Of a stretch of 64,000 bases of DNA, positions 19,734-50,890 are shown piece after piece. The stretch lies in contig NC_058370.1 in NCBI RefSeq assembly GCF_018350175.1, forward strand, positions 30,380,001 through 30,444,000. Reading direction: 5' to 3'. The DNA comes from Felis catus. Its lineage: Eukaryota. Position 1 is the stretch's first letter; each line of letters starts with the position of its first letter. The translations under genes were made by a program, and so were the position numbers. A model generated the notes under the pieces. That model made no database searches. It worked only from the letters and a program-made list of their open reading frames with translations, and was not told where the DNA came from.

Positions 19734-21554
19734 TCAGCTCTGATGTCCAAGACCCCGAACTCCTGCCTGCCGGGCATGGTTCTTCCTGGTCACGTGGACC
19801 AGATCGTGTTCCAAATGAAGGATGTGGCTCTGCACACGGTCATCAATGGGGAAGGAAGTCAGGTACCTCTTGNNNNNNNNNNNNNNNNNNNNNNNNNNNN
19901 NNNNNNNNNNNNNNNNNNNNNNNNNNNNNNNNNNNNNNNNNNNNNNNNNNNNNNNNNNNNNNNNNNNNNNNNNNNNNNNNNNNNNNNNNNNNNNNNNNNN
20001 NNNNNAGTCCTCTTCACCCTCCAGGAAATGGAGAGTAGGGCACTGGGCCTCCTCCTGGGCACTGTAGCCCCCGAAGCTGCCACCAGCTTCTACTACCCCC
20101 TGGGCCCAGTCCTCAGCCTCCAAGCCCTCAGAGGAGCTCTCTTCCTCCTCTTCCTCCTCCTCTTCATCACTGTCATCAACATCACCCTCCTCTTCCACCT
20201 CCTCTTNNNNNNNNNNNNNNNNNNNNNNNNNNNNNNNNNNNNNNNNNNNNNNNNNNNNNNNNNNNNNNNNNNNNNNNNNNNNNNNNNNNNNNNNNNNNNN
20301 NNNNNNNNNNNNNNNNNNNNNNNNNNNNNNNNNNNNNNNNNNNNNNNNNNNNNNNNNAGTGGTGATGGTGGCATTTGGGCCACCCCCGAAGCCAGCCTCA
20401 CGAAAGCAGGCAGCTATGTCCGAAGGCTCCACTGCCTGCCAGGCGGCAGCCACGAAGTGCAAGGCCTCCATCAAACCTAGCTGCAGGCCTGAACGATCCT
20501 GGCCCTCTAGTGCGGCCATGGCCTTGAGTAGCATAGCCTGGCGGTAGTGGCCCTTCACCTGTTGGACCACTCCCCGCTCCAGCGGCTGCACGGTGCCCGG
20601 CGGGAAGAAGGCCAGCTGTACATGCCGCAGGCCGGAGGTATCCAGGGATTGGGCAGCCAGGCGGCCGGCCAGTAGCAGGACTCGGCGAGACTCTGCAGCC
20701 ATGCGAGTGTCCAGGGCCTTCAGGTACTTGGCCAGGGCCTGCGTGGTGACACCACCCTTAGAGTTGGCGGTGTAGTCGCAAGGCAGGCCGGCTTGGCCTG
20801 CACGGGGCTTGGCCGACTTGCCGGCCACAAGCGGGGGCAGCTTCTCGCTACCGTCTGCGTTGGCGCACAGCAGGACGCTCAGGCGCTGGGTGGCCCTGCG
20901 CGCCCGTCCATCGCTGCCGCACAGCCCCGCAGCCTGGTCGGGCAGGAAGTCGTACCACAGACTGGTCTCAATGGCGCTGAACACGTCCTGGGAGGCGTAG
21001 CCCTCGGCCACCGACGGCGGCTGCTCCTCCCGAGCGCGCCAGCCCGTCGAACCCCCGCCGCTGCCCTCCGAGGGCACCGCAGGTGGGCTGGCGGGAGCCG
21101 CTGGGGGCCGGGGAGCAGCACTGCGCGACCGGGCGCGGGCCACACCGCTNNNNNNNNNNNNNNNNNNNNNNNNNNNNNNNNNNNNNNNNNNNNNNNNNNN
21201 NNNNNNNNNNNNNNNNNNNNNNNNNNNNNNNNNNNNNNNNNNNNNNNNNNNNNNNNNNNNNNNNNNNNNNNNNNNNNNNNNNNNNNNNNNNNNNNNNNNN
21301 NNNNNNNNNNNNNNNNNNNNNNNNNNNNNNNNNNNNNNNNNNNNNNNNNNNNNNNNNNNNNNNNNNNNNNNNNNNNNNNNNNNNNNNNNNNNNNNNNNNN
21401 NNNNNNNNNNNNNNNNNNNNNNNNNNNNNNNNNNNNNNNNNNNNNNNNNNNNNNNNNNNNNNNNNNNNNNNNNNNNNNNNNNNNNNNNNTCCTCCACCTC
21501 CTGGATGATCCGCGACTTCTCCCGGAACGTCAGNNNNNNNNNNNNNNNNNNNNN
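19734..21554 (-). CDS. CENPB: Centromere protein B, intronless domesticated pogo/Tigger-family transposase, about 606 aa
   Basis: Visible peptides LTFREKSRIIQEVE, SGVARAR...GGGPNATITT, EEVEEEGDVDDSD..., KRYLTSFPIDDRVQSHILHLEHDLVHVTRKNHARQAGVRGLGHQS*. ATG is inside N-run 21534-21698; placed at 21554 assuming the conserved MGPKRRQ precedes L8 (21533-21531). Confidence 0.96.
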   Translation of the reverse strand, partial: XXXXXXXLTFREKSRIIQEVEXXXXXXXXXXXXXXXXXXXXXXXXXXXXXXXXXXXXXXXXXXXXXXXXXXXXXXXXXXXXXXXXXXXXXXXXXXXXXXXXXXXXXXXXXXXXXXXXXXXXXXXXXXXXXXXXXXSGVARARSRSAAPRPPAAPASPPAVPSEGSGGGSTGWRAREEQPPSVAEGYASQDVFSAIETSLWYDFLPDQAAGLCGSDGRARRATQRLSVLLCANADGSEKLPPLVAGKSAKPRAGQAGLPCDYTANSKGGVTTQALAKYLKALDTRMAAESRRVLLLAGRLAAQSLDTSGLRHVQLAFFPPGTVQPLERGVVQQVKGHYRQAMLLKAMAALEGQDRSGLQLGLMEALHFVAAAWQAVEPSDIAACFREAGFGGGPNATITTXXXXXXXXXXXXXXXXXXXXXXXXXXXXXXXXXXXXXXXXXXXXXXXXXXXEEVEEEGDVDDSDEEEEEEEEESSSEGLEAEDWAQGVVEAGGSFGGYSAQEEAQCPTLHFLEGEEDXXXXXXXXXXXXXXXXXXXXXXXXXXXXXXXXXXXXXXXXXXXXXKRYLTSFPIDDRVQSHILHLEHDLVHVTRKNHARQAGVRGLGHQS

Positions 21555-22070
21555 NNNNNNNNNNNNNNNNNNNNNNNNNNNNNNNNNNNNNNNNNNNNNN
21601 NNNNNNNNNNNNNNNNNNNNNNNNNNNNNNNNNNNNNNNNNNNNNNNNNNNNNNNNNNNNNNNNNNNNNNNNNNNNNNNNNNNNNNNNNNNNNNNNNGGT
21701 GACCCGGCCGGGCCGGGGGCACCTTCGGGGGCGCCGGCGGGCGCGGCGCCGGGCGGCGGGCGGCAGGCGGCGGNNNNNNNNNNNNNNNNNNNNNNNNNNN
21801 NNNNNNNNNNNNNNNNNNNNNNNNNNNNNNNNNNNNNNNNNNNNNNNNNNNNNNNNNNNNNNNNNNNNNNNNNNNNNNNNNNNNNNNNNNNNNNNNNNNN
21901 NNNNNNNNNNNNNCCTCCGCGCCCACCCCCCTCCCCGCCGCCCCGGACCGACCGCGGGGGGGCGCTGCGGCCTGCTGGACCCGCTAGCGCTCGGGCGTCC
22001 GGAGACCCGCGGGCGAACGCGCGGGCAGGGGCGCGGTGCCCGGCCTCTGCGCCCAGTGGGCACCGACCTG
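20380..22070. promoter_or_regulatory. CpG island over the CENPB 5' half; bidirectional CENPB/upstream-CDC25B promoter
   Basis: Very high CpG density in non-N sequence; TATAAA on + at 22076-22081. Confidence 0.8.
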
Positions 22071-22120
22071 CTGTTTATAAAGAATAACAACTGTGTTTTG
22101 TGGTTTTTGTTTTGTGACAG

Positions 22121-22194
22121 CAAAATCTACGGAATCTGAAAAATACAGGAAACTAAAAATCATCTTTCACCCCAACACCTGGAGAAATGCGCAG
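22121..22194 (+). other. CDC25B: Candidate alternative upstream exon of CDC25B carrying an in-frame ATG (22187)
   Basis: Acceptor ttttgtggtttttgttttgtgacag|, donor GCAG|GTAACA; ATG CGC AG joins exon 2 (T GAG ACC) in frame to give MRSETPK. Confidence 0.7.
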
Positions 22195-24155
22195 GTAACA
22201 TTTTGGTACGTTTCCTTCCAGTCTTTTCTCTAGGTTCATGCAGTTTTCTTTTTAAAAATTTATTGCATAAAACTGGCATCAGATGTATACACTGTATAAC
22301 TGGCATCTCCTGCTGTTTCACCTGGCATCAAGTGATGAGAATTTTGCCACTTGATGAAGTATTGCCAACATGCTTTTTAATAGTTGTATGTTGTTCCAAT
22401 TATGGGTGAACACTAATCTGTGTGGCCTATTGTTACCCATTTAGATTATTTTTACAAGCAGCATTAGAATTTTAAATCTATTTGCTAGTAATCCCCAAAT
22501 CCATAGATGAACACTGATAACATCTCCGTGTGTCACCTTCTGGACTTTTCCATGCATACAGGCATAAATGTGTTTTCAGCTACAGAAATAATGTCGTTTA
22601 TATATATAAAAGCATACATACACATGAATCCCTGAAACCTCCTCCTGCGCCAAACAAATAAAAATGACATATTCTTAAAACAATGAATGCTTTGCAGTAG
22701 TTTAAAAAAAAATCTATTAGAGTAGCTTGAGGTGTGTAGTCAAAGAGGAAGGCTGTGACCCAGGGGGATGGGCTAAGGACCTGGGATGATCTGGATGAGG
22801 CTACAAACAAGTGGATGTGTACAAAGAAGAGGACCAAGGACAGTGCCCTGGGCTCTCCAAGGTTAAGGGTTCAAGAAAGGACTAACAAGAAATTCATGAA
22901 AAACAGCTGAAGAGGTTGGAGAAACACCAGACCTGTATGGTGTTCTGGAGGCCAAGGGAAGAAAGTGTAACTCACTGCTGTGTTACCATGTATATTTCTT
23001 TGAATGCCATTTGAATGTGAATTTTCTAGTCATACTTTTTGTCCATGTTTCTCTTGTATTTGTCTTTTTGTGGACTTACAGGAGCTCTTCATATGCTCTG
23101 AACACAAAATCTTTGTTAAGTATATTGCAAATATTTTCTTCCAGTCTGCTACTTATCCTCTAACTTAGTCTAGGGAATCTTAAATATGAGAAGTTTGTAA
23201 CCTTTAAGTAAGCAGCTGTGTCAATTTTTTCCTTTATTGTTTCTGGGTTTTGTGTCTTACCGTAGGCCTTTTCCACTCCTGAGACATAAAAAATATTCTT
23301 CTAATCACAAGGTCTAGAAGAACATGGGAGATTTTTCCCTACAGGGGCCAGATCAGTGCTTGGCCCATAATGGGTATATGGTCCCTGTGCAAAGGTGAGT
23401 GTAAGGCTACGTGTCCGAGACTCCTTGCCACACATTTTCAGGAAACTGTGTCTACATTTTGGTGGTTTCATCAATGTACACATATGTCCCTCCTGCCTCT
23501 TCGCCCATCTTGGCTTGTAATCAATGTGTGTTTGGGTGAATGGACAATGGGTGGGCTTTTTTTTTTTTTTTTCTACTTCGCTGAATTTTCCCATAAGCAA
23601 GTACAACAGGACCTTTAAAATTAAAAGGAGAATGGAAAGATTGCTGAGGGGCATGAGGAATAATGATTAGGTAGGTAGAATGGGTATTAGGCCTAGTGGG
23701 TAGCTTTGGACAGCCTAGGCCAAGATGAGAGAAGGTGGACTGTAGACTTCTCTAAGGTGGGGAATTGGAAAGGTGGGGCTTACAGAGGGAGGTGGGGGGA
23801 TCCCAGGGCTCCAGATGGATCGACATAGGAATTGCTCAGCTGAGAGGGAGTGGAAATGGGCCCTATGCCCTGCTACAGACAGCAGGTAGACCAGATATCT
23901 GGAAATGGCTGTGCTGTCAACACAAGTGTGTGACTTCTTTTTTGTCCTGGAAGTGGCCATACTGGTATTTTTTTGTGGGAACCAAGGATGGGCCTGGAAG
24001 GTGAAGACAATATGGGCCTATTGATAGAGGTGTATACAGTTACTAGGACAGAGATTGTCTAGATAATTGAGGACATCTCTAGAGTTTCTAGAGCCAAGAG
24101 TCCCAAGAGAAATACATTTCTCCCCTAATCTTCCATAATTCTACTCACACTTTCA

Positions 24156-24366
24156 TTTTTTTTTTTTTTAATTTTGAGAGAGAGTGAGGAAGAGCATGTG
24201 AGAGCAGGGGAGGGGCAGAGAGAGAGGGAGAGAGAGAGTCGCAAGCAGGCTACACACTGTCAGCACAGAGCCCAACGTGGGGCTTGAACTCATGAAATGA
24301 GAGATCATGACCTGAGCCAAAATCAAGAGTCAGACACTTAACTAACTGAACCACCCAGGTGGCCCC
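24156..24366 (-). mobile_element. Can-SINE
   Basis: Reverse SINE with (GA)n and T-tail. Confidence 0.9.
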
Positions 24367-24375
24367 ATCCTTTCA

Positions 24376-24600
24376 TTTTTTGAAGTTTATTTATTTATTT
24401 TGAGAGAGAGAGAGAGAGAGCAGGGGAGGAGCAGAGAAACAGGGAGAGAGAGAATCCCAAGCAGGCTCTGCACTGACAGCACACTTTGCTGTCAGTGCAG
24501 AGCCTGACTCAGGGCTCGAACTCACAAACCGTGAGATCATGGCCTGAGCTGAAATCAAGAGTCAGACACTTAACTGACTGAGCCACCCAGGTGCTCCCCC
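24376..24600 (-). mobile_element. Can-SINE containing an internal perfect hairpin
   Basis: Reverse SINE; TSD ccatcctttcatttt; inverted repeat 24462-24506. Confidence 0.9.
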
Positions 24601-25070
24601 CATCCTTTCATTTTAACAGCTTTATTGAGATATATTTCACGTATCATACAATTCACTCATTTAGCATATACAATTCATAGATACATGCAACTATCACCAC
24701 AGTCAGTTTTAGAACATTTTCATCACCTTAGAAAGAAACCCCTGCTTGGATACCTCATATGAATGGAATCAATAACACATGTCTTTTATGACTGGCTTCT
24801 TTCACTTAGAGTCATATTTTCAAGATTCATCCATGATGAACTATTTGTTAGTGCTTTATTCTTTTCTTACAGCTGAATAATACTCTATTGTATGGATATA
24901 AGACATTTTTATCCATTTATCATTTGATGAACATTTGGATTATTTCTGTTTTGGCAGTTACGAATAATGCTGCTGTAAGCATTTGTTTGCAAGCTTTTGT
25001 GTGAACATGTTTTCATTTTTCTCGGGTATATAGCTGGGAGTGGAGTTGCTGGGTCATATGGTAACTCATG
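24600..25070 (-). mobile_element. Old L1M 3' fragment
   Basis: ttttaacagctttattgagatata...tatgactggcttctttcacttag...aataatgctgctgtaagcatt. Confidence 0.8.
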
Positions 25071-25294
25071 TTTTTTTTTTTAATTTTTTTTAACGTTTAT
25101 TTATTTTTGAGACAGAGAGAGACAGAGCATGAACAGGGGAGGGTCAGAGAGAGAGGGAGACACAGAATCTGAAACGGGCTCCAGGCTCTGAGCTGTCAGC
25201 ACAGAGCCCGACGCGGGGCTCGAACTCACGGACCGTGAGATCATGACCTGAGCCGAAGTCGGACGTTTAACCGACTGAGCCACCCAGGCGCCCC
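25071..25294 (-). mobile_element. SINEC_Fc
   Basis: Full felid SINE consensus. Confidence 0.93.
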
Positions 25295-26258
25295 AGGTAA
25301 CTCTTATGTTTAATTGTCTGGGGAACTACCGGATTGAGTACCAGATTCAGGTCTTTGAATTAACTTGAAAATTGTACCTGTTCTTTGGAAAATATTTTAA
25401 AATACAGAAGATGTTGAGGGTACAAACATTTAATTCCACTATTCAGAGAATATTCTTGTGGGATACTTTTCTGTGCATATCGTTTTTAGTGGGACCATAG
25501 TTGGCATAATATTTTGTAGCCCATATTGTGAACATCTTTTCACGTCAATAATTATTTTCATCAGTGAGTTTCAACTTTCTTTTACGCTAGGAACCCTCTC
25601 TTGAAAAGACCATCTTCTGAGAGCCCATTGTGTAATCACTCAAATATCAACAATTACTTATTGGGCCCCTGCTGGATGCCAAGCATCCCTACCTGCCCCC
25701 ATGCCCATTCTCTTTAAAAGCTGCAGGTATTACACAGTATAGAGGAGTCACCTCATTAGCTGCTCCCCTGTAAGAACACCCAGCTTGCTCTCTGCATTTC
25801 ATTGTTACTAACGATGACTCAATGAACAAACATCTGTGTGTACTTTTATCATCTCTTTAAGAGAAATCCATAGAGGTGGGATGTGGGGTCAGAGGCCAGC
25901 CTTGGCCGTGGGCCCATATGAGGTGCCTGGAGATGAGAGAAGAGGCAAATGACTTGGTCCCTGTTCTGCAGCTCAGTCAGCTTGAGGAAGTGACATTCGG
26001 GAAAGGGAAAAGGAGATTTCAATAAATAAAGCTCATATCTTGCAATGGTTCCTTTTTAGGAATTCATTCTGTGTATGCCTGCCGCATCAATGTAAAAATG
26101 AGTAACCTGAATGTTCAGCATTAGGGAATTGAGTAAATATATGCCTTTATGGTACTCATATGGATCCACCTCCAAGTAAAAGAAAGCAAGGGGTAAAACA
26201 ATGTTTCACATACTGTTTGTTATATCTGTAAAAATATGGACATATGCTTGTACACATA

Positions 26259-26765
26259 TAGACCTACACTGCCCACTATGGTAGCCACTAATAGCATGTG
26301 ATTATTGAGCACTGGAAATGTGGTGAGTACAAGCTGAGATGGGCTGTGAGTGTAAGATGCACATTGGACTTTGAGACTTGGTACCAAAAAAAAGTATCTA
26401 AAATATCTAATTAGCAGCACCTAATCTCACAGCTCGTGCGTGGGTTCAAGCCCCGCATTGGGGTTACCTGCTGGAAGCCAGCTTGGGATTTTCTCTCTCT
26501 CTCTCTCTCAATCCTCCTCCACTCATGTGCTCTCTCTCTCTCTCTCAAAATAAATAAACTTTCAAATAAAATATCTAATTAACAATTATTATATTGATAA
26601 TATGTTTAAATGATAACATTTTGAATATATTAGATTAAATAAAATATTAAAATTTCAACTGTTTCTTTTATATTTTTTAATGTGGTTACTAGAAGATTTT
26701 AAATTATGTATATGGCTCATATTTGTGCCTGCCATTATGTTTCTATTGCCTAGGACTGTCATAGA
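26259..26765. mobile_element. MER33 (hAT-Charlie) interrupted by a 5'-truncated SINE (26414-26570)
   Basis: actgcccactatggtagccactaatagcatgtgattattgagcactggaaatgtgg...; SINE TSD aaaatatctaatta. Confidence 0.8.
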
Positions 26766-26908
26766 CTATCTCCAGAATATGCAACAAGTTTATGATAGTG
26801 ACTGCATCTGTTCTGAATGTTTGTGTGGGATGGAAGATTGACTTTTCACTGCTGTTTTGTATCATTTGAATTTTCTCCCTTGTTCAAATTTTTGGTACCA
26901 TGAACCAA

Positions 26909-27124
26909 TTTTTTTAAGTTTATTTATTTGTTTTTGGGAGAGAGAGAGAGAGAGAGAGAGAGAGCTCACGAGGAGGGGAGGGGCAAAGGGAGAGAGAATC
27001 CAAAGCAGGCTTTGTGCTGTTAGCATGTAGCCCTACACGAGGCTTGAACCCACAAATGGTGAGATCATGCCTGAGCCAAAGTCAAGAGCCCGACACTCAA
27101 CTGACTGAGCCACCCAGGCACCCC
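26909..27124 (-). mobile_element. Can-SINE
   Basis: Reverse SINE with (GA)n. Confidence 0.88.
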
Positions 27125-27219
27125 AGTAACATGTTCCAATTTTAAAAAACCATTTAACATGTCACAAGCCATGACGGAAAAGGCACTAGAAAAATGAATC
27201 CCATAAAGATGCCATGTGG

Positions 27220-27864
27220 ATGGAGTACTATGTGGCAATGAGAAAGAATGAAATATGGCCCTTTGTAGCAACGTGGATGGAACTGGAGAGTGTTATGCTA
27301 AGTGAAATAAGCCACACAGAGAAAGACAGATACCATATGTTTTTACTCTTATGTGGATCCTGAGAAACTTAACAGAAACCCATGGGGGAGGGGAAGGAAA
27401 AAAAAAAAAGAGGTTAGAGTGGGAGAGAGCCAAAGCATAAGAGACTCTTAAAAACTGAGAACGGGGCACCTGGGTGGCTCAGTCGGTTGGATGTCCGACT
27501 TTGGCTCAGGTCATGATCTCGCGGTCTGTGAGTTTGAGCCCCGCTTCGGGCTCTGTGCTGACAGCTCAGAGCCTGGAGCCTGTTTTGGATTCTGTGTCTC
27601 CCTCTCTCTCTGACCTTCCCCCGTTCATGCTCTGTCTCTCTCTGTCTCAAAAATGAATAAATGTTAAAAAAAATTTAAAAAAAAAACTGAGAACAAACTG
27701 AGGGTTGATGGGGGGTGGGAGGGAGGGCAGGGTGGGTGATGGGTATTGAGGAGGGCACCTTTTGGGATGAGCACTGGGTGTTGTATGGAAACCAATTTGA
27801 CAATAAATTTCATATATTGAAAAAAAATAAAATAAATAAATTTAAAAAATAAATTTAAAAAAAA
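27220..27864 (+). mobile_element. 5'-truncated felid L1 (L1_Fc-type 3' end) with nested SINEC_Fc (27463-27681)
   Basis: gaaatatggccctttgtagcaacgtggatggaactggagagtg...gacaataaatttcatatattg plus A-tail; L1 TSD about atgcc(a/g)tgtgg; SINE TSD aaaaactgagaac. Confidence 0.9.
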
Positions 27865-29199
27865 TGCCGTGTGGGAACAGGCTTAGAAGCAGAAGGATTT
27901 TGCAAACGTGATAATTTTTCCTTCTTTTCTGCCAAGGTACTGGGGTCACACCAGACCCCCTTAAGCGAGCCCACAGCTTGATATGTACAGTTTAGAGGCA
28001 TGGTGTTCCTTTCATGGGAAGTGGAGCTTTCTGAAGCCCAGAACTGTCATTGTAACCAGGACCTGGCTGGATGTGGGGAGTTGTTTCTCATACAAAATGA
28101 TTGCAAATATCTATTTTAGCTTATTTTTATTGACTATCTTTTTTTTTTTAATTGGGCACGTAATCTGTGATCTAACTGGCAAAAGGAGATGTGGGAAGAT
28201 ACACAGAGCTGATGGGAGGAATGCTCTGGAATGACCCCTCTGTGGTCTTGGGCTCTCCTCACTGGCCCAGAGGTGACCTCTGACTGTGAGATTTCAAAGG
28301 ATTCAAGAGTGTCACGCTCCCCCACCTTTTGTTGACCACACACAGACACACCTTCCCCACACCCTGTAGAAGCCTGTAAGCACATTCGTGTGTGTGTGTG
28401 TGTGTGTGTTGGGGGGGGGATAACACCAGCTGGGTTGATTTTGAAAACGCAACCCTTCATTTTTATTTCTGGTCTTTGAAGTGGGAGGCCTCACAGACTG
28501 TCTCCTCCCCCAGTCCCCCATCCTGGGGACAGCCACAGCCTGGACTGTGAGTAGTGGCTAGAGATTGGGAGCTGGACCCTTGATCCAGGGCGGATGAACC
28601 TGAAACCTCAGCCCTGTCCAGCACTAAGTATAGCGCCTGACATCACAGAAGCTGGGCAAAATGTTGGGAAAAGGAAAAGTCATGAACCCCCACCCTCCTC
28701 CTCACCACTCTCAGGTAGGACTGGGGGTCTTTGCATCCCCTTCTTGCGCAAGTCCCCTAGCCACCCAACCTCCTACCGCCAGGCCCTCCCTTCGGCCACT
28801 CCCACCCACTGCACCTTGGCAGGAGGGATGGGACTACGCAAGAGGCACAAAGCCTCAGCTCCTGCTTTCCCAGCTGTGCTCCACCCCGCCAGAGGCCAAC
28901 TCCTTGCTGGGGAGATGGGATGGAAAAGCAGCTTACCACCCATTCACTTTTGGGTGCAGCCTTCCGGTCTCATTCCAGGAAAGCAGGATTGATGCAAAGC
29001 GATTAGTCCGAAGGTGCTCACTTTAAACTAGTGATAAATTCAGTTTCCCTCGTCATCAAAGACACAAATTAAACAATGTGATGCCATTGACATCACCTTA
29101 GCCAAACCGTCGGTGGGTGTGAGAAAGTTCCACTAATTGGGTTGAGGTCGTAGACACCTTCTTTGGCCCCAACCGCCAAAACCTATAGCTAGGTCAGGC

Positions 29200-30430
29200 A
29201 TTAGAGCCTCCTCTGGGGTTGCTGGAGAAAATTAGACCCCTCGGGGTCACATGTATCGTAGCCCCCCACCTCCGGTGTACCTCGTGTGCGAGGGGCGGGG
29301 GAAGGGGGGAGGCTCCGTTCGATGATTTTGCTTTAGGGACGCTCCGCGCTGTTAGTCGCGAGCGCAGGGAGGCTGCAGGAGCGCCTGGGGTGAATTTCTG
29401 CTCCACCACTTGCCCGGTGTGACCTTGAACGAGTTAATGAACTTCTCCACGCTTCAACGTCCGGGTCGATAGAGTGGCAAACCCAGACCGCACTTCATAG
29501 CCTTGTCTGGCAAACTCCTGGAATGGAGCCTTCTCACGGTGCCTACTGGTGAGTGTAGGTGATGTTAAATCTCGGGGTGGGGTGGGGGGTCCCTCTGAGG
29601 CCACCCTAGCGGGTGTTGGTTCCTCTGAGACCCTCTCGGCCGGGGGTGTGTAACTCCAAACCACATCCCGAGAAGCAGAATTTGGGAAGCCAAGATCCTC
29701 GAGTCCTGGCTGGAGGGGCGAGGGGGTGGCGTGTGGGGGCTCAGGAGAAACCCCAGTCCCTCAGCCCCAACCAAAGTCTGGAACTCGGCGGGGCCGGGCT
29801 GGCCAGCCTCCGCGCCTTTCACCCCGCGGGCCCCGCCCTCAGCCCCGCCCTCCTCTAACCAGAGCCCCCATTGGTGGCGTCCGGCGGCGCGGCTGCTGTT
29901 ATTTTTCGAATATATAAGGAGGTGGAGGTGGCAGCTGCTGCTTAGAGGTTTCCCGGACTGGTGGCTGGTCCCTGCGTCCCTCCACCCCGCCCCACCCTCC
30001 CCGCTTCCCTCTCCTCCCTCGCTCCGGCCCCGTGGCTCTTCCTCCCTCCCTCCCCCCCCTCCACCCCGCGCCCGCTCCCCTCCTCGCCCCGGCCAGCTGT
30101 GCCCGGCGTCGCCCTGCGTCCGGCCCTCCGGCCAGCCTTCCGCGGGCCACGCCGCGATGGAGCTGCCCCAGCCCGAGCCCGCGCCGGGCGTGGCTCTCAG
30201 TCCGGCCGGCGTGCGCGGTGGCGCCGAGCGTCCCAGCCACCTCCGGGGCCTCCGGCTGGGAGCTCTTGGCCTCGTGGGGTCCCCGGAGCGCGCGGCCGCT
30301 TCCTCGCCGGTCACCACCCTCACCCAGACCATGCACAACCTCGCCGGGCTGGGAAGGTAGGGCGCCCCACCGACGCGGGGTGTGGGGTGAGAGGCCCCCA
30401 CTAGGGTGTTGGTCCCCGGCGTGGGAGTCG
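29200..30430 (+). promoter_or_regulatory. CDC25B main CpG-island promoter
   Basis: GC boxes about 29831-29850, ATTGG (NF-Y) 29870-29874, TATATAA 29911-29917, about 245 nt upstream of the ATG. Confidence 0.85.
29350..29560 (+). mobile_element. Highly diverged, CpG-rich MIR inside the CDC25B island
   Basis: ctccaccacttgcccggtgtgaccttgaacgagttaatgaacttctccacgcttca...cttcatagccttgtctgg...ccttctcacggtgcct is collinear with the MIR consensus. Confidence 0.55.
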
Positions 30431-32147
30431 AATCGAGAGGCTGAGTGGGGAGGTGTCCTGGGTAAGAGCCTGCTTCAGGGACCCGGGACTAGGGCAATGA
30501 GGCCAGGTCTGTGCTGCTCACACCCTCCAGGTGACTCGCTCTTGGCAGCACAAGCCTCTGGAGACCACTGTCCCACTTCCCGGCTCCCCCCCCTCCCCCG
30601 CTGCCCCCCTAATCTCTGCCCTAATCACCACTATTTTGCCCCAGGCAGGGGATTCTGAGCTTGGAGTGGGAACTTGAGGGTGGCAGAACAGACTGGTTCT
30701 CCTATGTCCATGCCCCTGCTCCCTCCACCCCTAGTCCTTTCCCAGGGTTAAGGGGTTAAACACTGGTCCTGCTTCCTGAACAGGCCTGCAGTGTCCAGGC
30801 TGGGTTGCCCTCAGCAGCAATAGAGACTAAAGTATTGGTCCTAGTTCCAGAAAGGCTTGTGGATGGGTAGGGGTCTGAAGAGTTCCGATGAAGGCCCTCC
30901 AGGCTCCTTTCCTGCCCTGCCATCCCCCAGAGTGGCCTCCAGCCCAGCTTCTTGCTCTTGCTCTGGGCTCACCTCTTTCTTAATCAACAAAGAAAAGACA
31001 CTTAGGGCTTCTGCAGAAGGCCCAGAGAAGAGGGTAAGCCCTCAGTGCCATCGCCTCTCTGGGGCAGTGGTGGGTCCTTCAGAGGTGTGGCCAGTGGGAA
31101 CATGGGCCAGCCAGCTCTTGAGCCCCATGTTTACATTTCTCCTTCCCTGGGTCCCTGTTGCCTTCCCAGTGAGACCCCAAAGAGTCAGGTAGGTGGCCTG
31201 CTCACACGCCTATCCCTGTCCCGGAGACGAGCATCTGAATCTTCCCTGTCGTCTGAGTCCTCTGAATCTTCTGATGCAGGTGAGTCTCTTAGGGCCCCGG
31301 GGGACTTGGGGGGCTGCCTGAGTCTCCCCCACTTCCCTGCCAATCACACTAACATTTTCCCCACAACCGGGAGCCTCCACCTGCCCACTTCTGGTGGGGC
31401 TTACCACACCCAGCCCAGACTGGCTGAGCGGCTGTAGGGCGGGGCCCACTTGGGGAGAGGAGATCTTACCTATTTAAAACCAGGCGCCAAAGTCCCTGAA
31501 CCACAGCCCCACCTGGGAGGCATTAGGGCTGACACTTGGTCATTTTATAACATTCGCTTGCCTTCAGCTATAACCTTTTCTTTAAAAAGCTGTTATCTCT
31601 TCTAGAACAAATTACTTTAAACCAGTTTAAGAAAAATGCTTAGCAAAATTTTGGTTTAAAAACCCATACAGAGGAGGGGCACCTAGTGGCTCAGCTGGTT
31701 AAGCTTCAGACTCTTGATTTCAGCTCACGTCATGATCTCAAAGTTCTCCGTGCCGACAGCACACAGCCTGCTTGGGATTCTGTCTCTCTCCCTCTCTCTG
31801 CCCTGTTACATTTTTTTTTTTTTTTTTAATGTGTCAAGATCTAAAATAGAAACAGGTTTTTTCTTTCTTGAATAGGGTTGGGACATGGTGGGGGAAAGTG
31901 CAGAAGATGGGCACTACTTTCAAACCAAGGTGCTCTGTCCCCTCAGGTCTCTGCATGGATTCTCCCAGCCCCATGGACCCCCAGATGGCAGAGCAGACGT
32001 AAGTACAGAAAAGGGATCTCCCCTGGGGCACCTGAGTGGCTCAGTGGGTTGAGCATCCGACTCTTGATTTTGGCTCAGGTCATGATCCCAGGGTCGTGGG
32101 ATTGAGCCCTTTGTCAGGCTCCATGCTGAGCTTGGAGCCTGCTTAAG

Positions 32148-32198
<51 letters not shown>

Positions 32199-35100
32199 AA
32201 AAAAAAAAAAAAAAAAAGTGAAAGGATCCTCACTATCAAGGAGTTGGTACCTGCCTTTGGGAATCCCAGTTTCAGCATAAACCCACTGGGGAAGCCTGGG
32301 AGAATGCCCAGACCCCTCCTATCCCCATATACCTGGTACTAATTGACCTTCCCAAGCCCTGAGACTTTGCTTCCTGTCAGAAAAGGGTCTGCTCCTATAG
32401 GAGCAGCCAACTGTGGTCTCAGGACCAGGTAGTGGGGATAGTGGCTTCTGGAGCAGTGGATACTTCAGCCAGCCCGTGGCTTGTGGGAATACAGGCCTGG
32501 TGTGTGTCCTGTTTTTCTTTTGCCTATACAGATGTTTATTTTTTTTTTTCTGTGAAATATAACAATTTTAAAACATGGTCCAATTGATTCAAAACTTTGA
32601 ATTTGCTATAGACCAAACAAAACAGTTGGGGCAGGTTGGTCCAGCCCTTGGCCATCCTATCAGCAACCTCTGGACCAGGCACTTTATGAGAGAGAGCATG
32701 GAGAGGGAGTTCTGCTGAGGACAGATCCCTTCCCCTTGGGTGTGGGGCATGAGTAGTATCTTCCAGACCACAGCTGTTCCCATCCAGCTGTTAGAGCCCC
32801 AGCAGGGAGAGCAGCTGCCAGGCCTTAGTGGGGACAGCTGGGCATCCCCAGACTGGGCTGAGGGACTATGGCTTTGGGGTCAGAGCAGTGCCTATCTTTC
32901 CTCCCACTGCCTTTGATCAGACTGGGCTGGGCTACAGGGTTTGTTCACAAACAGGAAGCAGGGAGAGAAATGGGTGGGGGTGGGGGGACTGCAGGTCGGT
33001 TTTTGGTGGCAACACAGAGCTGTCCCTGCTTTACTCCCGAGGCCCAGGTGCAGATTGTAAATGAAGCCAATGCAATGTGGTGATTCCTGATGCCAGGTTG
33101 TCTGGGCACAACCACTCCCCACCCCTAGGAGTCATCCCCCTGACGCTAGCCCTCGGTGGGCCCCCCCACCTCTGCACCTGCTGTGTCGGTTACAGTTTCT
33201 CAGAAAGAAGCATGTGTGTGTGTGTGTGTGCCTGCGTTCGCATAGACGCACAAAAGCCTTGCGTGGCAGGTGGTCTCTGGTAACATAGCTAGGGGGTGGG
33301 GCCTATCTACAGAAGCTTGTGCCCCAGCCTCAAAAGGAACATCTGTTGGAATTCTTTGCCTGCTGGCCTCTTCTAAGGCAGGAGAAGGGGGTGGGACAGA
33401 GGCTGGGTCCTGGAAAATTCCATAGGAGGGAGGAGAGGATGTGACCCTGAACATTTGTCACCAGGGGGTCTGGCATGGCACACTGTGGCTGATCCAGGGG
33501 CACACTAAACTAGGCCCCTGTCCTGGGGGGAGCCAGGAGCGCCCCACACAAGGGGAGGGAAGGCATCCAGGCCCTGGAGATACCCACATTGTTGGCCACA
33601 GTCTGTCATCATGGGATGGATGGATGCCTTTCCTGGCCACCATATGGCCCCGCTGAGGTGATTTGCATACAGGTGGAAGGCCTGTGGGCAGGCTGGCGAG
33701 ACCGTTGCCTTGGTAGCGCTTCAGCAACCCTGTGACCTGCCCCAGCTGTCTCTATTGCTGCCATTCTCTGGGCCCTCTTCCATTCAGGGCAGCCTTCAAA
33801 ATCCCAGGCTGCTTCTCCTCTCCCCCCTCCCCAGTACCTGGACCCCCTCCCTGCATTCTTCCCTCCACTGTCTACTGGCCTGAGTCCTGGCCTCTGGGCC
33901 TTGTGGACTGGGGGCCTGATGCTGGGGGTGGGCAATGTGCTATAGGAGGAGGTGGGCTGCACAGGACGTTTCTCTCTCTTAGGTTTGAACAGGCCATCCA
34001 AGCAGCCAGCCGGGTCATCCGAAAGTAAGTGCTACAGCCTTCCTCAGGCCGGCTCTGGTAGTCTTGGTAGTCTACCTACCACAGGCTCTGTCCATGCTCC
34101 CCTCCCCTCCACCCCCCCCCCCACCACGTTGGGTGGAGTAGGCATGGGGAGGGTGCTGTCCCATTCCCTCCCACAGGGATGCATAGGGCTCTGCGGTGGA
34201 GGGGCATCCTGCCTGCTCTCCTGCACGGCCCTCCACTCTCCAGCCCTGACATATCCCCGTTTCCTTCTGCAGCGAGCAGTTTGCCATTCGACGCTTCCAG
34301 TCCTTACCGGTGAGTGCCCTCTGAGGCCTGACGCTGGAGGCCCAGGCATTGCCCAGGCTTGAGGAGGGGCAGGAGGGATCCAGGGTCGCCTCCCAGAGGG
34401 TGGACTTGAAGTGGTCTGGCGTCCCTGGTCTGGCTGTGGGAGATGGGGTTTTGGAGGTGGATGGGCAAGCTGGGGGATTCGAAGGAGGGATGGGAGAAGG
34501 TAGGGCCAGGGCTGATGCCAGAGGAATGCAGCCTTCAGTACCTGCTGCCCTACCTGGCTCTCTAGGTGAGGCTTCTGGGCCACAGCCCTGTGCTACGGAA
34601 CATCACCAACTCCCAAGCACCCGGCAGCTGGAGGAAGAGCGAGGCGTGTGGCCGAGCTGCCCGCAGCTCTGGGGAGGACAAAGAGAATGTGCGCGTCCAG
34701 AAGGCTGGAGTGGGAGCACTTCAGGGAGAGAAGGGGGTGTGCTGGGGTGGTTCTCTGGCGTTTGATGACACCCCCCCCCCCATCTTGCCCACAGAATGGA
34801 TTTGTTTTCAAGATGCCATGGAAACCCCCACATCCCAGCCATGCCCATGCTTTGGAAGAGTGGGCTGACCGAAGAGAAGCCTTTGCCCAGAGACCAAGCT
34901 CAGCCCCCGACCTGATGGTACGTCAGGAGAGCCAGACCATGCAGGGTGGGCTTGCATGTAGGGTTGGCACCCCTGAAGGCAGCCTGGGGGAAGGTGGAGG
35001 GTGATCCTGAACACTGAGGCAGTGGGAACCTTTTCTCAGAAGGATGGGGTTGGGGGCTGCCCGGGGTCCCCACCCTGAGCAGCTTGTGTCTGTCCCCTGC

Positions 35101-37219
35101 ACAGTGTCTCACCCCTGAGCGGAAGATGGAAATAGAGGAGTGGAGTCCCCCAGCCCGATCCCGCTTCCCCCTGACTGCCACCCAGGGGTCCTCTGAGGAA
35201 GATGATGGATTTGTGGACATCCTGGAGAGTGACTTAAAGGTAACCAGTCTTTCCCCAGGATCTCCCCAAAGAGGAAAGCACTGACCTCCTGCAGGGAGAC
35301 TACGCCATCATTCCAATGACAGAAGAGGAATTGGAGCTAATGGAGTCACAGCCTGACCTCTGGCCTACCAGAGACTAGCAGGCGACTGGCACTGGTGATG
35401 CAGTGAGGGAGGGCCCTGCAGGGCAGAGGGAAGCCTGGCACTCCACCATGGCCACGCTTCTCACGATTCTGTGCAAACAACTGGGGCCCTGCAATTTCCT
35501 GGTTCTAAGGGACCACCCTGTGTGGACATGGCCGAGGAGGGCCATGCTGAAGGACTTAGGGCCTATGAGGTTTGGCCTTTGCCTGCATGTTAACCATATC
35601 CTTGCTGATTTGGCCTCAGGATGACAATGTGGTCCCCCCAGGCATGGAGAGCCTCATTAGCGCCCCACTGGTCAAGACCTCAGAAAAGGAGGAAGAGCAG
35701 GTGGGTTTCTGGGGGGGCCGCTCAGAACTTGGAGGGGTGGAGCCCTACCCTCCAGGTGGGGTTAGTAGGGGGCAGGGGCTGGGCACTCTGACCCCCTACC
35801 TGCCACCCTTCCCAGGACCTCATCATATACAGCAAGTGCCAGCGGCTCTTCCGTTCTCCGTCCATGCCCTGCAGCGTGATCCGACCCATCCTCAAGAGGC
35901 TGGAGCGGCCCCACGACAGGGACCTGCCCATACAGAACAAGCGGAGGAAGAGCGTCACCCCTCCAGAGGAGCAACGGGAGGCCGAGGAACCTGTGGGTAC
36001 CCCCTAGGGTGGGGCTGGGCGGCCACTGTCCGAGTCCACCCCGCAAGCCCTTCTTGGCTGGGTTTGTGGCAGAGGGAGGGGGCAGGGAAAGAGGTACCAG
36101 CTGAATGGGGGCACTGAGGGGCAGCCTGCCCACCCCTGATCCTGGCCACCATCCACCCCACAGAAAGCCCGTGTCCTCCGCTCAAAGTCCTTGTGTCATG
36201 ATGAGATTGAGACTATCCTGGACAGTGACCACCGAGAACTGATTGGGGATTACTCCAAGGTACCAGCACTGGGGACCCTCCGCAGACTTGACCCCTTACT
36301 GTATGGCCCCCCCAAGCTCAGCAGGTGTTTTGACACCTTCCTCTCCCCTCCCAGCACACTTCCCCCCACTCCCTGCTTTGTCATTTGCAGCTTATCCTTT
36401 ATTCTTACCTAGACTCCTCTCTGGCTCTCTTTGGTCTCCTGACTCTACCTCAAATCTGTCTGGGGTATCAGTTGTGTTCCAACCTTGGAAAACATTGCCA
36501 AACTAACATCTAGCTTGGAGCCTCCTCTGGCCTCATCCGGGCGCTTTGCAGAGTGTGGGGGCAGCAGGCAGGGAGTTCATCTCTTCTGCTCTCTTCTTCA
36601 CTTTCCCCTTGGAATGGGGTTGCTCCCTGGATGTCAGAACCCAAGAGGCACCTCTTGGTTGCTATCGGAACCAGAGCTAAATTTGAAAGGTCAGAGCAGG
36701 TGTGGCCTTCTGTGCTTAGAAAAGAAACTCCATACTTACCTGACTCCTGGTCTTGCCAGTTTCACCTTTTTTTCCTCCTCGCTCTCTCTTTCTCCCATTT
36801 CCCTTTCTCAAACTCTCTCTCCTCTTCCCTTCAGGCCTTCCTTCTGCAGACTGTGGATGGGAAGCACCAAGATCTCAAGTACATCTCACCAGAAACGGTA
36901 TGTGGGGATGAGCCATTCTCCAGGCACACTTGGGACGTTTGCCTGTTAACCTTTTCTGGCTGGAAAAGGCCAGGGCAGCGGTAGGGTTGGGGTCAGCTCC
37001 CACCTGTCAGCCTGACCTGCTGGGACCCACCTCTGTGACCCACAGATGGCAGCCCTGTTGGCAGGCAAGTTCAGCAACATTGTGGAGAGGTTTGTGATTG
37101 TGGACTGCAGGTACCCCTACGAGTATGAAGGCGGGCACATTAAGGTGAGGCGGGCTGATGAGGACAGGCCCTGAAGACCCACCAGGTCTGTCCTTCCTCT
37201 GTGGGGAGAGTGACTCAGT

Positions 37220-37265
<46 letters not shown>

Positions 37266-38622
37266 GTGGCTGCACCCTATCTTAGGGAAGGATTCTGCCC
37301 AGTAAGAGGTGGGGTCACCTGTCTGAAAGTTGGGAACCGCACAGGGAGGGACCTGCCACCCAGGCCCAGGGCTACTGCCTGACCTCCAGCTCCTCTGGCA
37401 GACTGCCGTGAACTTGCCCCTGGAACGGGATGCTGAGACCTTCCTGCTACAGAGCCCCATCACACCCTGTAATCTGGACAAGAGAATCATCCTCATTTTC
37501 CACTGTGAATTCTCATCTGAACGCGGTCCCCGCATGTGAGTCAGCCAGCGGGTGTCTGCTCCTGACCTCTGCCCAGGCTTTGGGATGCTGGAGCCATCTG
37601 ATGCACAGGAGGCCCGGGCCCAGCCCCAGCCCCTCCTAGACCTGGGCCCCTGGTCTCCTGGCAGTGTGTAGTAGACCTCAGCCTCCCTTCCTGTGCATGG
37701 CACCCTCCTCCTACTTCCCTCTCCCCATCCTTCCCATCTGGCCTCATGTCCACCCACCATCCATTGCCACCCTCCCCCTCCCCCCCACCAAGATCTGGTT
37801 CTAAGTCTCCAAAAGTGTCCTTAACCTTCAAGGGCCCTGTCCCAAGCCTCGGTGATGTTGACCCTTCCAGGGTTTGACGGATCTTTCTTCTCCCCACCTC
37901 TCATCCTCACCAAGTCTTGTCCAGACCTCCTGAACAGATCTCTACAATTTTGTCTACTTCTCTCCTTCCTGTTTCCCCTTTCTTGGTCCAGGTCAGATAT
38001 CTCTAACAAAGATTGTTGTGAACTATCTTCCAGAAACAACTCCCTTGATTTACCTACTTTCTTCCATCTCCCCAACCTTTTCTGGACCCAGTAGCCAGAT
38101 GATCTAAGAGTGTTCTTGTGGCTGACATTCCTTTACTCAAGCCTTCTGTGGCTCCCCATGGCCCACAAAGGGGTGGGTGCAAAGAATAGGTCCCCTGAGG
38201 TATATCCCGCTGCACGCCCAGCTCTGACCCCTACACCCCTGCTGGTCTCAGGTGCCGTTTCATCAGGGAGCGTGACAGAGCCGCCAACGACTATCCCAGC
38301 CTCTACTATCCGGAGATGTATATCCTCAAGGGCGGCTATAAGGAGTTCTTCCCACAGCACCCGGTACCATGGGGTGTGGGAGGGTTGGACTGTAGGGAAT
38401 GGGTTCTGCCCAAGGAGAAGGGAGGTCTCCTCCCAGAGTTAACCATTCCCCGTATTGATGGACTCTCCCATCCTGCCCTAGACCTTCTGTGAGCCCCAGG
38501 ACTACCGGCCCATGAACCATGAGGCCTTTAAGGACGAGTTGAAGACCTTCCGTCTCAAGACACGCAGCTGGGCTGGGGAGAGGAGCCGGCGGGAGCTCTG
38601 TAGCCGCCTGCAGGACCAGTGA
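30157..38622 (+). CDS. CDC25B: M-phase inducer phosphatase 2 (dual-specificity rhodanese-fold phosphatase), 574 aa
   Basis: Exons 30157-30356, 31170-31279, 31947-31998, 33983-34024, 34273-34309, 34566-34688, 34795-34917, 35105-35239, 35620-35700, 35816-35992, 36164-36259, 36835-36897, 37046-37144, 37402-37535, 38252-38363, 38482-38622; all GT-AG; 1725 nt. Motifs: KEN, DDGFVD degron, RFQSLP/RPSSAP/RSPSMP 14-3-3 sites, [13 protein letters not shown], catalytic HCEFSSER. Confidence 0.98.
31676..31805 (+). mobile_element. Internally deleted Can-SINE (CDC25B intron 2)
   Basis: ggggcacctagtggctcag head; ctgcttgggattctgtctctc 3' part. Confidence 0.8.
32025..32217 (+). mobile_element. Can-SINE (CDC25B intron 3)
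   Basis: SINE head, (CT)n, poly-A. Confidence 0.9.
37220..37264 (+). repeat. Poly-G homopolymer, 45 nt (CDC25B intron 13)
   Basis: Direct count. Confidence 0.9.
37850..38165 (+). mobile_element. Old L2 fragment (CDC25B intron 14)
   Basis: ctacttctctcc...tggtccagg...actcaagccttctgtggctccccatggccca resembles L2. Confidence 0.45.
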
Positions 38623-49018: not shown

Positions 49019-50890
49019 ATGGTCCACGCCTTCCTCATCCACAACTTGCGGGCTCCGCAGGCCCAGGACACGGGCCTTTGCCGAGTGCTCTACTCCTGCG
49101 TCTTTGGTGCCGAGAATTCACCTGATGACCCACGGCCACATGGTGCTGAGAGGGACAGGCTCCTTCGAAAGGAGCAGATTTTGGCTGTGGCCAGGTAACA
49201 CATGGGCCTTCACTGAACACATGCCTGATAATGATAGGTTTTCTGCGGGGCACAGAGAATCAGACTAAGAAGCAGAGACAGAGTTTTAGAGTAGTGTTTC
49301 CATGAGCTGTCCACAGTTGTTCACAAGCGTTATGTGAAAAGGGGTTAAAGAAATAATAACAGTACGGTCATCATCGTTAACTATTATAGTTAGCATTTAT
49401 TGAGCCTGTACATATGTGCTAAGAGTTTATGTTCTGAGCATTTTATGTATATGGACTCATTAATCCTTGTAACCATCTATTGAGATAGATACAGTTATTA
49501 TCCCTACCTTGCAGGTGAATAAACTGAGGTACAGAGACTTTAAGGAACTTAACCTGCCCAAGGTTATGTAACTAGAACATGGCAGAGCTGGGATTTGGGT
49601 GTAGGCAGGCAGATCCTGGAACATGCTTTGCAGTGCAGGACTTCTCAGGGCCATTAGTATGCCTGTAGGTTTTATGAATCCCTAAGGAGGAGTGAGAATG
49701 TCATACATGGGAATGCTGAGCCCAGAGCCTCCTGAAAGCCACTGAAAGAGCAGTGTGTGGGAAATACTGTTCCAGATGTAGTGGCTGGCCTTGGACCTTC
49801 CCATCCCAGACCCAGATGGAGCCAGCCAGTGCCAGAATCTCTTGACCTCTCTGCCTTTTGTGTCCGGGGATTAGCATTCTCGAATGGGCAGCCCTGTGTT
49901 AGCCTCTTGCCATCCCCTTGTTCCTCTGGGCCTCCACCCCCCTCCTGTAGCACAGAAAATTAAATGCCTTTAAAACCAGCCTGTGCATGGCCCAAATTAG
50001 AAAGTGATTCAGGAGGGATCAGAGAGTGATTTCAAAAACCTGAATGGCCAAGTGGACGGTCTTCTCTTTTTTATTTGGAAAGGGTTGCAGGATGGTGGTG
50101 GAGAGGTTGGACAGGCCAGTTGCGTTTCTTCATTTCTCATGGCTTGCGTTTCTTTATGTTAAGGAAGCCTCTGTGAAGCTAGTGGTGGCAGGATCTTTTT
50201 CCCCTGGTGCCCTTTCCGGGCTCAAAGAGCTGTGTTCAAAACCTGCCTTCTCTTGAACACATGGAGTGAAATGGTTCAGGGCCTGGAGATGGGAGCCTGG
50301 ATTCCTGTCATGGCTCATGCTTCCTGCTCTGTGGTCCTGGGCAGGTCACTTAGTCCCTCTGGGGCTAAGTGTCTACCTCTGAGATATGGAGTTAATAGCA
50401 CCTCTCAGTTTTAGGGGTGGTCATGAGGATGACAGAAATCAGTGACCCACCCACTCTTCCCAGGCAGGTGGAATCCATGTGCCAGCTTCAGCAGCAGGCA
50501 TCTGGCCGGACCTCCGTGGACCTGCAGCTTCAGTCCTCAGATGAGCCAGTGCCCCTGCATGAGGCCCCACATGGGGCCTTCCGCCTGGCAGCAGGGGACC
50601 CTTTCCAGGAGCCTCGGACAGTGGTGTGGCTGGGTGTGCTCTCATTAGGCTTTGTCCTGGTGCTGGATGCCCATGAGAACCTGCTGCTGGCTGAGAGCAC
50701 ACTCCGGCTGCTGGCACGCCTCCTTCTGGATCACCTCCGGCTGCTTACCCCCAGCACCAACCTCTTGCTTAGGGCTGATCGCATCGAGGGCATCCTTGCC
50801 CGCTTCCTGCCCCATGGTCAACTGCTCTTCCTCAATGACCAGTTTGTCCAGGGTCTGGAGAAGGAACTCAGTGCTTCCTGGCCCCGCTGA
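49019..50890 (+). CDS. AP5S1: AP-5 complex subunit sigma-1, 200 aa
   Basis: Coding exons 49019-49194 (exon starts 49003) and 50464-50890; 603 nt; MVHAFLIHNLRAPQAQDTGLCRVLYSCVFG...QFVQGLEKELSASWPR*. Confidence 0.97.
49370..49615 (-). mobile_element. MIR (AP5S1 intron 2)
   Basis: tcatttaatcctt...aaactgaggtacagag...cttaacctgcccaaggttatg. Confidence 0.85.

What the first reader, a model, noticed from the sequence alone, without database searches (positions are those of the whole stretch)
22070..22200. Hidden CDC25B exon beside the CENPB promoter encodes an in-frame, N-terminally truncated phosphatase
Seen: TATAAA (22076-22081), a strong acceptor (T-rich tract, GACAG| at 22120), a 74-nt exon and donor GCAG|GTAACA (22194). 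Its only ATG (22187, G at -3) gives ATG CGC AG, which joins exon 2 (phase 2, T GAG ACC...) to yield [10 protein letters not shown]..., 510 aa, lacking residues 1-66 of the 574-aa form. Known: that segment contains the nuclear export signal region ([13 protein letters not shown]), and stable nuclear N-truncated CDC25B isoforms from an upstream promoter have been reported in human. Inference: a head-to-head CENPB/CDC25B promoter co-regulates a centromere protein and an export-deficient mitotic activator. It may be a TATA-driven first exon or an internal exon of a transcript overlapping the CENPB 5' end antisense.
Basis: partly seen in the sequence, partly recalled or inferred. Interest (0 to 1): 0.7.

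Follow-up and report, generated by a model that had tools for sequence, protein, structure and literature searches.

The report
Known alternative first exon of CDC25B
This cat DNA next to the centromere gene CENPB is the start of an already-catalogued shorter form of the cell-division enzyme CDC25B, likely the same as the known human short form; its start codon and splice site likely arose by mutation inside an ancient repeat, and its use in cat cells is not shown.

Summary
The sequence features are real. ATG 22187 and donor 22194|GT join exon 2 in frame, giving 510 aa versus 574. The isoform is not hidden. Cat UniProt A0ABI8AKM6 equals this splice form minus exon 9, letter for letter, and human RefSeq isoforms 4-6 start MHS at the same position. 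Stable nuclear N-truncated CDC25B was published in 2011 (title only seen). Models in 18 species show R/H/C/Y/S at residue 2, mostly the CpG-decay series of CGC, which points to one orthologous site. New here: the exon end lies in a dispersed old repeat (55 matches vs 0 control), and 0 of 29 other copies carry its AG|GT donor. The 74-nt TATA/acceptor model is unsupported: two contig sets run unspliced through TATA, acceptor and donor, and none of 13 raw reads lies on the exon. No cat junction was seen. Verdict: already known, with a modest new origin story.

The parts
19734..21554 (-). CENPB coding sequence (partly masked; start codon inferred at about 21554, inside an N block)
   Evidence: ORF 20702-19734 hits Pfam CENP-B_dimeris and DDE_1; start placed 21 nt before the first visible codons using a recalled CENPB N-terminus
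21698..22075 (.). CpG-island edge with GC boxes; likely shared promoter of CENPB (-) and the upstream CDC25B transcript (+)
   Evidence: CpG o/e and GC content; GC boxes at 21751, 21758, 21938; sharing is inferred
21971..22194 (+). Likely upstream first exon of CDC25B (5' end not mapped; 21971 is only the furthest contig start seen)
   Evidence: contigs X14 21971-22436 and X6 22018-22411; annotation match
22076..22081 (+). TATAAA; lies inside the laid contigs, so probably not the main core promoter
22101..22120 (+). Acceptor-like T tract plus CAG; no use seen
22157..22243 (+). Old dispersed repeat fragment (likely antisense 3' end of an L1M-type LINE; family name recalled) that holds the ATG and donor
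22187..22194 (+). Coding part of the exon: Met, Arg and the first two bases of Ser
   Evidence: the only ATG-Arg-Ser|G[TC] site in 21914-31169
22195..22200 (+). 5' splice donor GTAACA; read unspliced, the frame stops after Met-Arg-Arg
22657..22712 (+). AATAAA (22657) and genomic A9 run (22704-22712), where 5 oligo-dT reads end in extra A's
30157..30356 (+). Canonical CDC25B exon 1 coding part (residues 1-66), skipped by the short form; NES-like residues 52-62 start at 30310
31170..31279 (+). CDC25B exon 2, the shared acceptor exon (phase 2); predicted intron from 22194 is 8975 nt
31947..38622 (+). CDC25B exons 3-16: regulatory region, basic NLS-like motif (343), KEN (186), DDG motif (262), catalytic HCX5R (480), all kept in the short form

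Best explanation
This is the coding end of an upstream first exon of cat CDC25B, already in UniProt and likely orthologous to the human exon of RefSeq isoforms 4-6, which is predicted to splice to exon 2 and give a 510-aa phosphatase without residues 1-66. Likely mechanism: polymerase starting in the CENPB CpG island in the opposite direction transcribes into an old repeat fragment, in which point mutations likely created an ATG and a 5' splice site in a boreoeutherian ancestor. The splice site would let the divergent transcript escape early termination and join exon 2, 9 kb away. The protein keeps the NLS-like motif and catalytic domain, loses the NES-like segment, and would therefore stay nuclear, as reported for human N-truncated CDC25B in G2/M checkpoint recovery. 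Shown: sequence, frame, identity to annotated proteins, repeat location, and + strand RNA just downstream of the donor. Inferred: orthology, repeat origin of the signals, promoter sharing, splicing and protein in cat, localisation.
For: Cat A0ABI8AKM6 (483 aa) is identical to ATG22187 + exons 2-16 minus exon 9, and 22187 is the only site in 21914-31169 that could supply it. Human NP_001274445/6/7 begin MHS; two have BAG cDNA-type records listed and one is also in Logan assemblies. 28 of 326 CDC25B-like proteins fetched, from 18 species, have a two-residue leader: H 14 (primates), R 10 (squirrel, bat, cetartiodactyls, carnivores), C 2 (horse), Y 1, S 1. R/H/C/Y is the CGC CpG-decay series, and R recurring in four orders is hard to explain by forced projection of human MH. 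Repeat: 55 matches vs 0 for the reversed control; 22157-22186, outside the search core, scores above 99.99% of background; among 29 other copies AG|GT 0, G at 22195 1, T at 22188 1, G at 22189 0. All 13 raw reads have first mate on -, which implies + RNA if the library is a usual stranded one. U1 sites suppress early polyadenylation within about 1 kb (PMC4085477 passages); an AATAAA lies 460 nt after the donor.
Against: No junction or loose end at 22194 in any of 4 runs laid. Two contig sets cross the donor unspliced, none of the 13 raw reads lies on the exon, and one run laid nothing. Joints to exon 2 could not be seen directly because the laid stretch ended at 23100; only about 2% of the raw run was read; contigs drop rare forms. 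13 of the 14 non-primate leader proteins are UniRef-only and none is listed with an NCBI XP accession, so they are probably projections from human and not independent expression evidence; they also show only species where the signals survive. No cat RefSeq model seen (X1, X3, X4) has the leader, but only 15 of 27 members of the main felid cluster were listed. DNA of other mammals could not be aligned. The LINE label is only weakly tested: Pfam gave no hit for the comparison peptide, and window 22224-22720 matched no other copy's flank by blastn. The 10 nt holding ATG and donor are only about 1.2 sd below other copies.
Confidence: 0.7

Rival explanations
1. The exon is orthologous but largely vestigial in cat: the CENPB promoter makes a short, unspliced divergent RNA that ends near 22712, the ATG reads only Met-Arg-Arg-stop, and the cat protein entry is a projection from human.
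For: Unspliced contigs across the donor; reads at about 22234-22990 with an oligo-A end at 22712 in 5 reads; AATAAA at 22657; no non-primate XP model with the leader among those listed.
Against: The oligo-A end coincides with a genomic A9 run, 42-50 nt after the AATAAA, so internal priming on pre-mRNA explains it equally well. ATG and frame appear kept in 11 non-primate species while codon 2 drifts. Coverage was thin, and X6/X14 are only guessed to be RNA.
Confidence: 0.2
2. One reading: a 74-nt exon (22121-22194), either started from the TATA box at 22076 or spliced from a transcript that overlaps the CENPB 5' end in antisense.
For: TATAAA and a usable T-rich CAG acceptor exist.
Against: Contigs start 58-105 nt upstream of the TATA and cross the acceptor unbroken, with no loose end at 22120. 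TATA+30 (22106) falls upstream of the acceptor, so the two features cannot both define one exon. The acceptor is at the weak end of the gene's range.
Confidence: 0.07
3. Chance motif in a decayed repeat, unrelated to the human exon.
For: In-phase ATG-plus-donor patterns occur about 0.8 per kb nearby.
Against: Same Met-x-Ser leader in human RefSeq, and Arg at position 2 in four mammalian orders; unique fit of this site.
Confidence: 0.03

Closest known systems
Felis catus UniProt A0ABI8AKM6 (UniRef100_A0ABI8AKM6, 483 aa)
   Same: Identical, letter for letter, to the window's ATG22187 splice form without exon 9.
   Different: Lacks the 27-aa exon 9; the 510-aa form with exon 9 was not among the cat records listed. 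Probably a projected model, not RNA-proven (inference).
Human CDC25B RefSeq isoforms 4, 5, 6 (NP_001274445.1, NP_001274446.1, NP_001274447.1)
   Same: Two-residue leader joined to exon 2, loss of residues 1-66; isoform 4 (516 aa) aligns end to end with the 510-aa cat form, 453 identities.
   Different: His instead of Arg at residue 2; human exon 2 region is 6 aa longer. That the human exon lies beside CENPB is recalled, not tested.
N-terminally truncated stable nuclear CDC25B isoforms (Jullien et al. 2011, Cancer Res 71:1968, PMID 21363925)
   Same: N-truncated and nuclear, role in G2/M checkpoint recovery per the title; a distinct promoter is recalled from the abstract.
   Different: Paper not held; that its isoforms equal RefSeq 4-6 is my inference. 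Nothing tested in cat.
Repeat exonisation at divergent promoters, U1 versus polyadenylation-signal model (reviewed in PMC4085477; Wu and Sharp 2013 seen as a reference title only)
   Same: A 5' splice site close to a CpG promoter in the antisense direction, ahead of a polyadenylation signal.
   Different: Here the divergent transcript would be captured by an existing neighbouring gene and give a protein isoform; no paper linking this to CDC25B appeared in searches or 61.

Membership tests
CDC25B (M-phase inducer phosphatase 2) | M-inducer_phosp plus rhodanese domain with HCX5R | tested here: met
   Pfam PF06617 and PF00581 on P0215; HCX5R at 480; exon-1 peptide 100% identical to cat CDC25B X4
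N-truncated CDC25B isoform (human RefSeq 4-6 type) | Met-x leader spliced in phase 2 to exon 2, open to the normal stop | tested here: met
N-truncated CDC25B isoform (human RefSeq 4-6 type) | Loss of the N-terminal NES segment, NLS kept | tested here: met
   NES-like pattern at 52-62 is lost, basic motif at 343 kept; function of these motifs is recalled; other NES-like patterns (74, 140, 422, 544) remain
N-truncated CDC25B isoform (human RefSeq 4-6 type) | Spliced transcript exists in this species | tested here: inconclusive
   no junction or loose end in 4 runs; thin coverage; exon 2 not in the laid stretch
N-truncated CDC25B isoform (human RefSeq 4-6 type) | DNA-level orthology with the human first exon | not testable with these tools
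   no mammalian relative genomes held; indirect support from residue-2 pattern
N-truncated CDC25B isoform (human RefSeq 4-6 type) | Stable, exclusively nuclear protein acting in checkpoint recovery | not testable with these tools
   needs cell experiments
Bidirectional (head-to-head) promoter | Opposite-strand starts under 1 kb apart in a CpG island | tested here: inconclusive
   start codons about 633 nt apart, + strand RNA inferred; transcription starts not mapped, part of the region masked
Bidirectional (head-to-head) promoter | Co-regulated output in both directions | not testable with these tools
   FOXM1 is reviewed as activating both CDC25B and CENPB (PMC8235333 passages), but not through a shared promoter
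Interspersed-repeat-derived exon | Exon sequence homologous to a dispersed repeat | tested here: met
Interspersed-repeat-derived exon | Splice site and start codon absent from other copies | tested here: met
   0 of 29 AG|GT, 1 of 29 GT; 4 of 29 have some ATG nearby, but T at 22188 is in 1 and G at 22189 in 0 of 29 aligned copies
LINE-1 (L1M-type) 3' end | Co-oriented L1 ORF2-end remnants at a fitting distance; match to a Dfam model | tested here: inconclusive
   5 of 29 copies have a co-oriented L1-like piece 650-1060 nt downstream vs 1 upstream co-oriented, 1 downstream reversed, 2 upstream reversed; the L1 label of the probe is recalled, Pfam blank; no Dfam on hand

The most novel reading that the evidence does not exclude
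The checkpoint-recovery form of CDC25B was born when antisense transcription from the CENPB promoter (itself a domesticated transposase gene) acquired a start codon and splice donor by a few point mutations in a dead LINE fragment, before primates, rodents, bats, ungulates and carnivores split. It would be a datable, functional example of a protein isoform arising from divergent transcription, and would tie nuclear CDC25B output to the CENPB promoter.
Probability: 0.4. Interest if true: 0.5.

Novelty: already known. Interest (0 to 1): 0.25.

Why it matters
The isoform itself is annotated in cat and human, and its human counterpart is published, so it adds little. The added points are modest but testable: the start codon and donor look like gains inside an old repeat, the residue-2 pattern suggests the exon is shared across boreoeutherian mammals, and the promoter appears to be the back side of CENPB's. 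If confirmed, this gives a worked example of isoform birth from divergent transcription, and warns that CRISPRi or deletions at the CENPB promoter would also hit short CDC25B.

Tried and rejected
Run search: no holder on record as RNA; not used as evidence. Read laying: 4 of 24 listed runs laid, on 21914-23100 only; X1 laid nothing; no junction could be scored against exon 2. Flank profile HMMs were swamped by SINEs in the flanks; only the upstream-only hit at 22100-22186 (E 0.04) and the anchored matrix test are used. The bacterial promoter scan does not apply to a mammal. Pfam did not recognise the L1-like comparison peptide. Jullien 2011 and review PMC4862931 are not held. Ten full-text searches showed no paper describing the exon, a CENPB/CDC25B shared promoter or a repeat origin; only listings were seen for most hits, subscription papers are missing, and no supplements were opened, so genome-wide tables of bidirectional promoters or repeat-derived exons may list it. 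Passages read in PMC5377395, PMC6270710, PMC13753363, PMC5671937, PMC12154277, PMC2825247 and bioRxiv 2026.10.29.762835 added nothing on the short isoform beyond reference titles. Earlier scan notes: none near, none in relatives, none naming CDC25B or CENPB. No structure or complex prediction was run, as it would not bear on the question.

Full report
Setting. The window is G000:C10:30380001-30444000. The canonical CDC25B exon-1 peptide is 100% identical to Felis catus CDC25B isoform X4, so this is a cat genome. CENPB lies on the minus strand just upstream (Pfam DDE_1 and CENP-B_dimeris), partly masked by N.

Observation. TATAAA at 22076, CAG ending 22120, one ATG at 22187 and the donor after 22194 are present. 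Sixteen exons rebuilt by coordinate give 574 aa; swapping exon 1 for 22187-22194 gives an open 510-aa frame. The signals are ordinary: acceptor 11 of 17 pyrimidines against 11-17 for the 15 real acceptors, donor 7 of 9 on a consensus count. Eleven comparable ATG-plus-donor patterns occur in 13.4 kb of nearby sequence, so the motifs alone prove nothing.

It is already annotated. A search limited to short proteins and cluster listings returned human RefSeq isoforms 4 (516 aa), 5 (502 aa) and 6 (489 aa), all starting MHS; BAG records (recalled as cDNA clones) are listed for isoform 5 and for a 489-aa form. Cat UniProt A0ABI8AKM6 is identical to the window's splice form without exon 9, and 22187 is the only place in 21914-31169 that can supply Met-Arg-Ser before a donor. 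The 2011 paper on stable nuclear N-truncated CDC25B in G2/M checkpoint recovery was seen as a reference title only (not held). That its isoforms are RefSeq 4-6, and that the human exon lies beside CENPB, are recalled or inferred.

Conservation. Of 362 proteins fetched, 326 were CDC25B-like and at least 300 aa; 28 of these, from 18 species, have a two-residue leader. Residue 2 is His in 14 primate records, Arg in 10 (squirrel, Molossus bat, pig, peccary, blue whale, cat, lynx, panda), Cys in 2 (horse), Tyr in 1 (meerkat) and Ser in 1 (mink). Arg, His, Cys and Tyr are what CGC gives by CpG decay. Arg recurring in four orders argues for one real orthologous site, since a forced projection of human MH would not settle on Arg. 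Against: 13 of 14 non-primate records are UniRef-only and none is listed with an XP accession, so they are probably projected models, and species that lost the signals would be invisible. One mouse-containing and one elephant cluster (8 members each) showed no leader form, which is no proof of absence.

Expression in cat. Four of 24 listed runs were laid on 21914-23100. Raw oligo-dT run X24 (about 2% read) gave 13 reads, all first mate on minus, between about 22234 and 22990, none on 22121-22194; five end in extra A's at 22712, a genomic A9 run. Contigs of X14 (21971-22436) and X6 (22018-22411), guessed to be RNA, run unbroken through TATA, acceptor and donor; X1 laid nothing. No loose end appeared at 22120 or 22194. 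So plus-strand RNA diverging from CENPB is likely, the 74-nt and TATA versions are unsupported, and the splice is not shown. The test is weak: exon 2 was outside the stretch, coverage was thin, and contigs drop rare forms. Unspliced, the ATG reads Met-Arg-Arg-stop.

Origin in a repeat. The exon end matched two other genomic places at 87-93%, and a 27-nt pattern just after the donor matched 55 places against 0 for the reversed control. In the 29 other copies fetched (30 loci returned, one being the window), similarity extends outside the core: 22157-22186 scores above all but 0.01% of background, 22224-22243 above all but 0.45%, 22121-22156 only weakly (6%). At the signal positions the window departs from the family: T at 22188 in 1 of 29, G at 22189 in 0, G at 22195 in 1, AG|GT in 0. 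The exact 23-mer is unique in the genome at two mismatches. Five of 29 copies have a co-oriented L1-like piece 650-1060 nt downstream, against one upstream co-oriented and three reversed. The L1M label is recalled; Pfam did not recognise the probe peptide, and the window's own downstream 500 nt matched no other flank.

Mechanism. Most likely the CENPB CpG island fires in both directions. On the plus side a 5' splice site gained in the repeat, 460 nt ahead of the first AATAAA, would recruit U1, which suppresses cleavage within about 1 kb (PMC4085477 passages), allowing elongation over the 8975-nt intron to exon 2. The product loses the NES-like stretch 52-62 and keeps the basic motif, KEN, DDG and catalytic motifs, so it is predicted to be nuclear. 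The Kozak context is moderate, and in-frame Met107, 113 and 117 could give shorter forms by leaky scanning. Co-regulation is untested; FOXM1 is reviewed as activating both genes (PMC8235333 passages), without mention of a shared promoter.

Verdict. The repeat origin of the start codon and donor did not appear in ten searches of the held library (no supplements opened), but repeat exonisation is a well-known process. Interest 0.25; novelty: already known.

Noticed in passing
window 22234-22990 (+): Plus-strand RNA reads downstream of the donor with an oligo-A end at 22712: a short divergent polyadenylated RNA, or internal priming on pre-mRNA at a genomic A9 run.
   Followed up: partly
window 30265-30268: Cat has Leu37 where cheetah and most others have His. 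This removes an out-of-frame ATG that in horse, whale, deer, sheep and bat models starts MASWG/MAFWG-type isoforms joined to exon 3.
   Followed up: no
window 37219-37264: A run of about 45 G in CDC25B intron 13; possible assembly artefact or G-quadruplex-forming tract.
   Followed up: no
window 50423-50890 (+): ORF resembling AP5S1 proteins. A 731-aa Fukomys model (KFO20523.1) sits in a cluster holding both CDC25B and AP5S1, suggesting an annotation fusion of the two neighbours.
   Followed up: no
window 27200-27830 (+): Young L1-like 3' end with an open ORF2-tail-like peptide, interrupted by a SINE, inside the predicted 9-kb intron; labels recalled.
   Followed up: partly
window 22129, 22412, 22424, 22445, 22476, 22649, 22684, 22931: Other letters in the laid runs, four of eight A>G; probably alleles, editing not excluded without matched DNA.
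   Followed up: no
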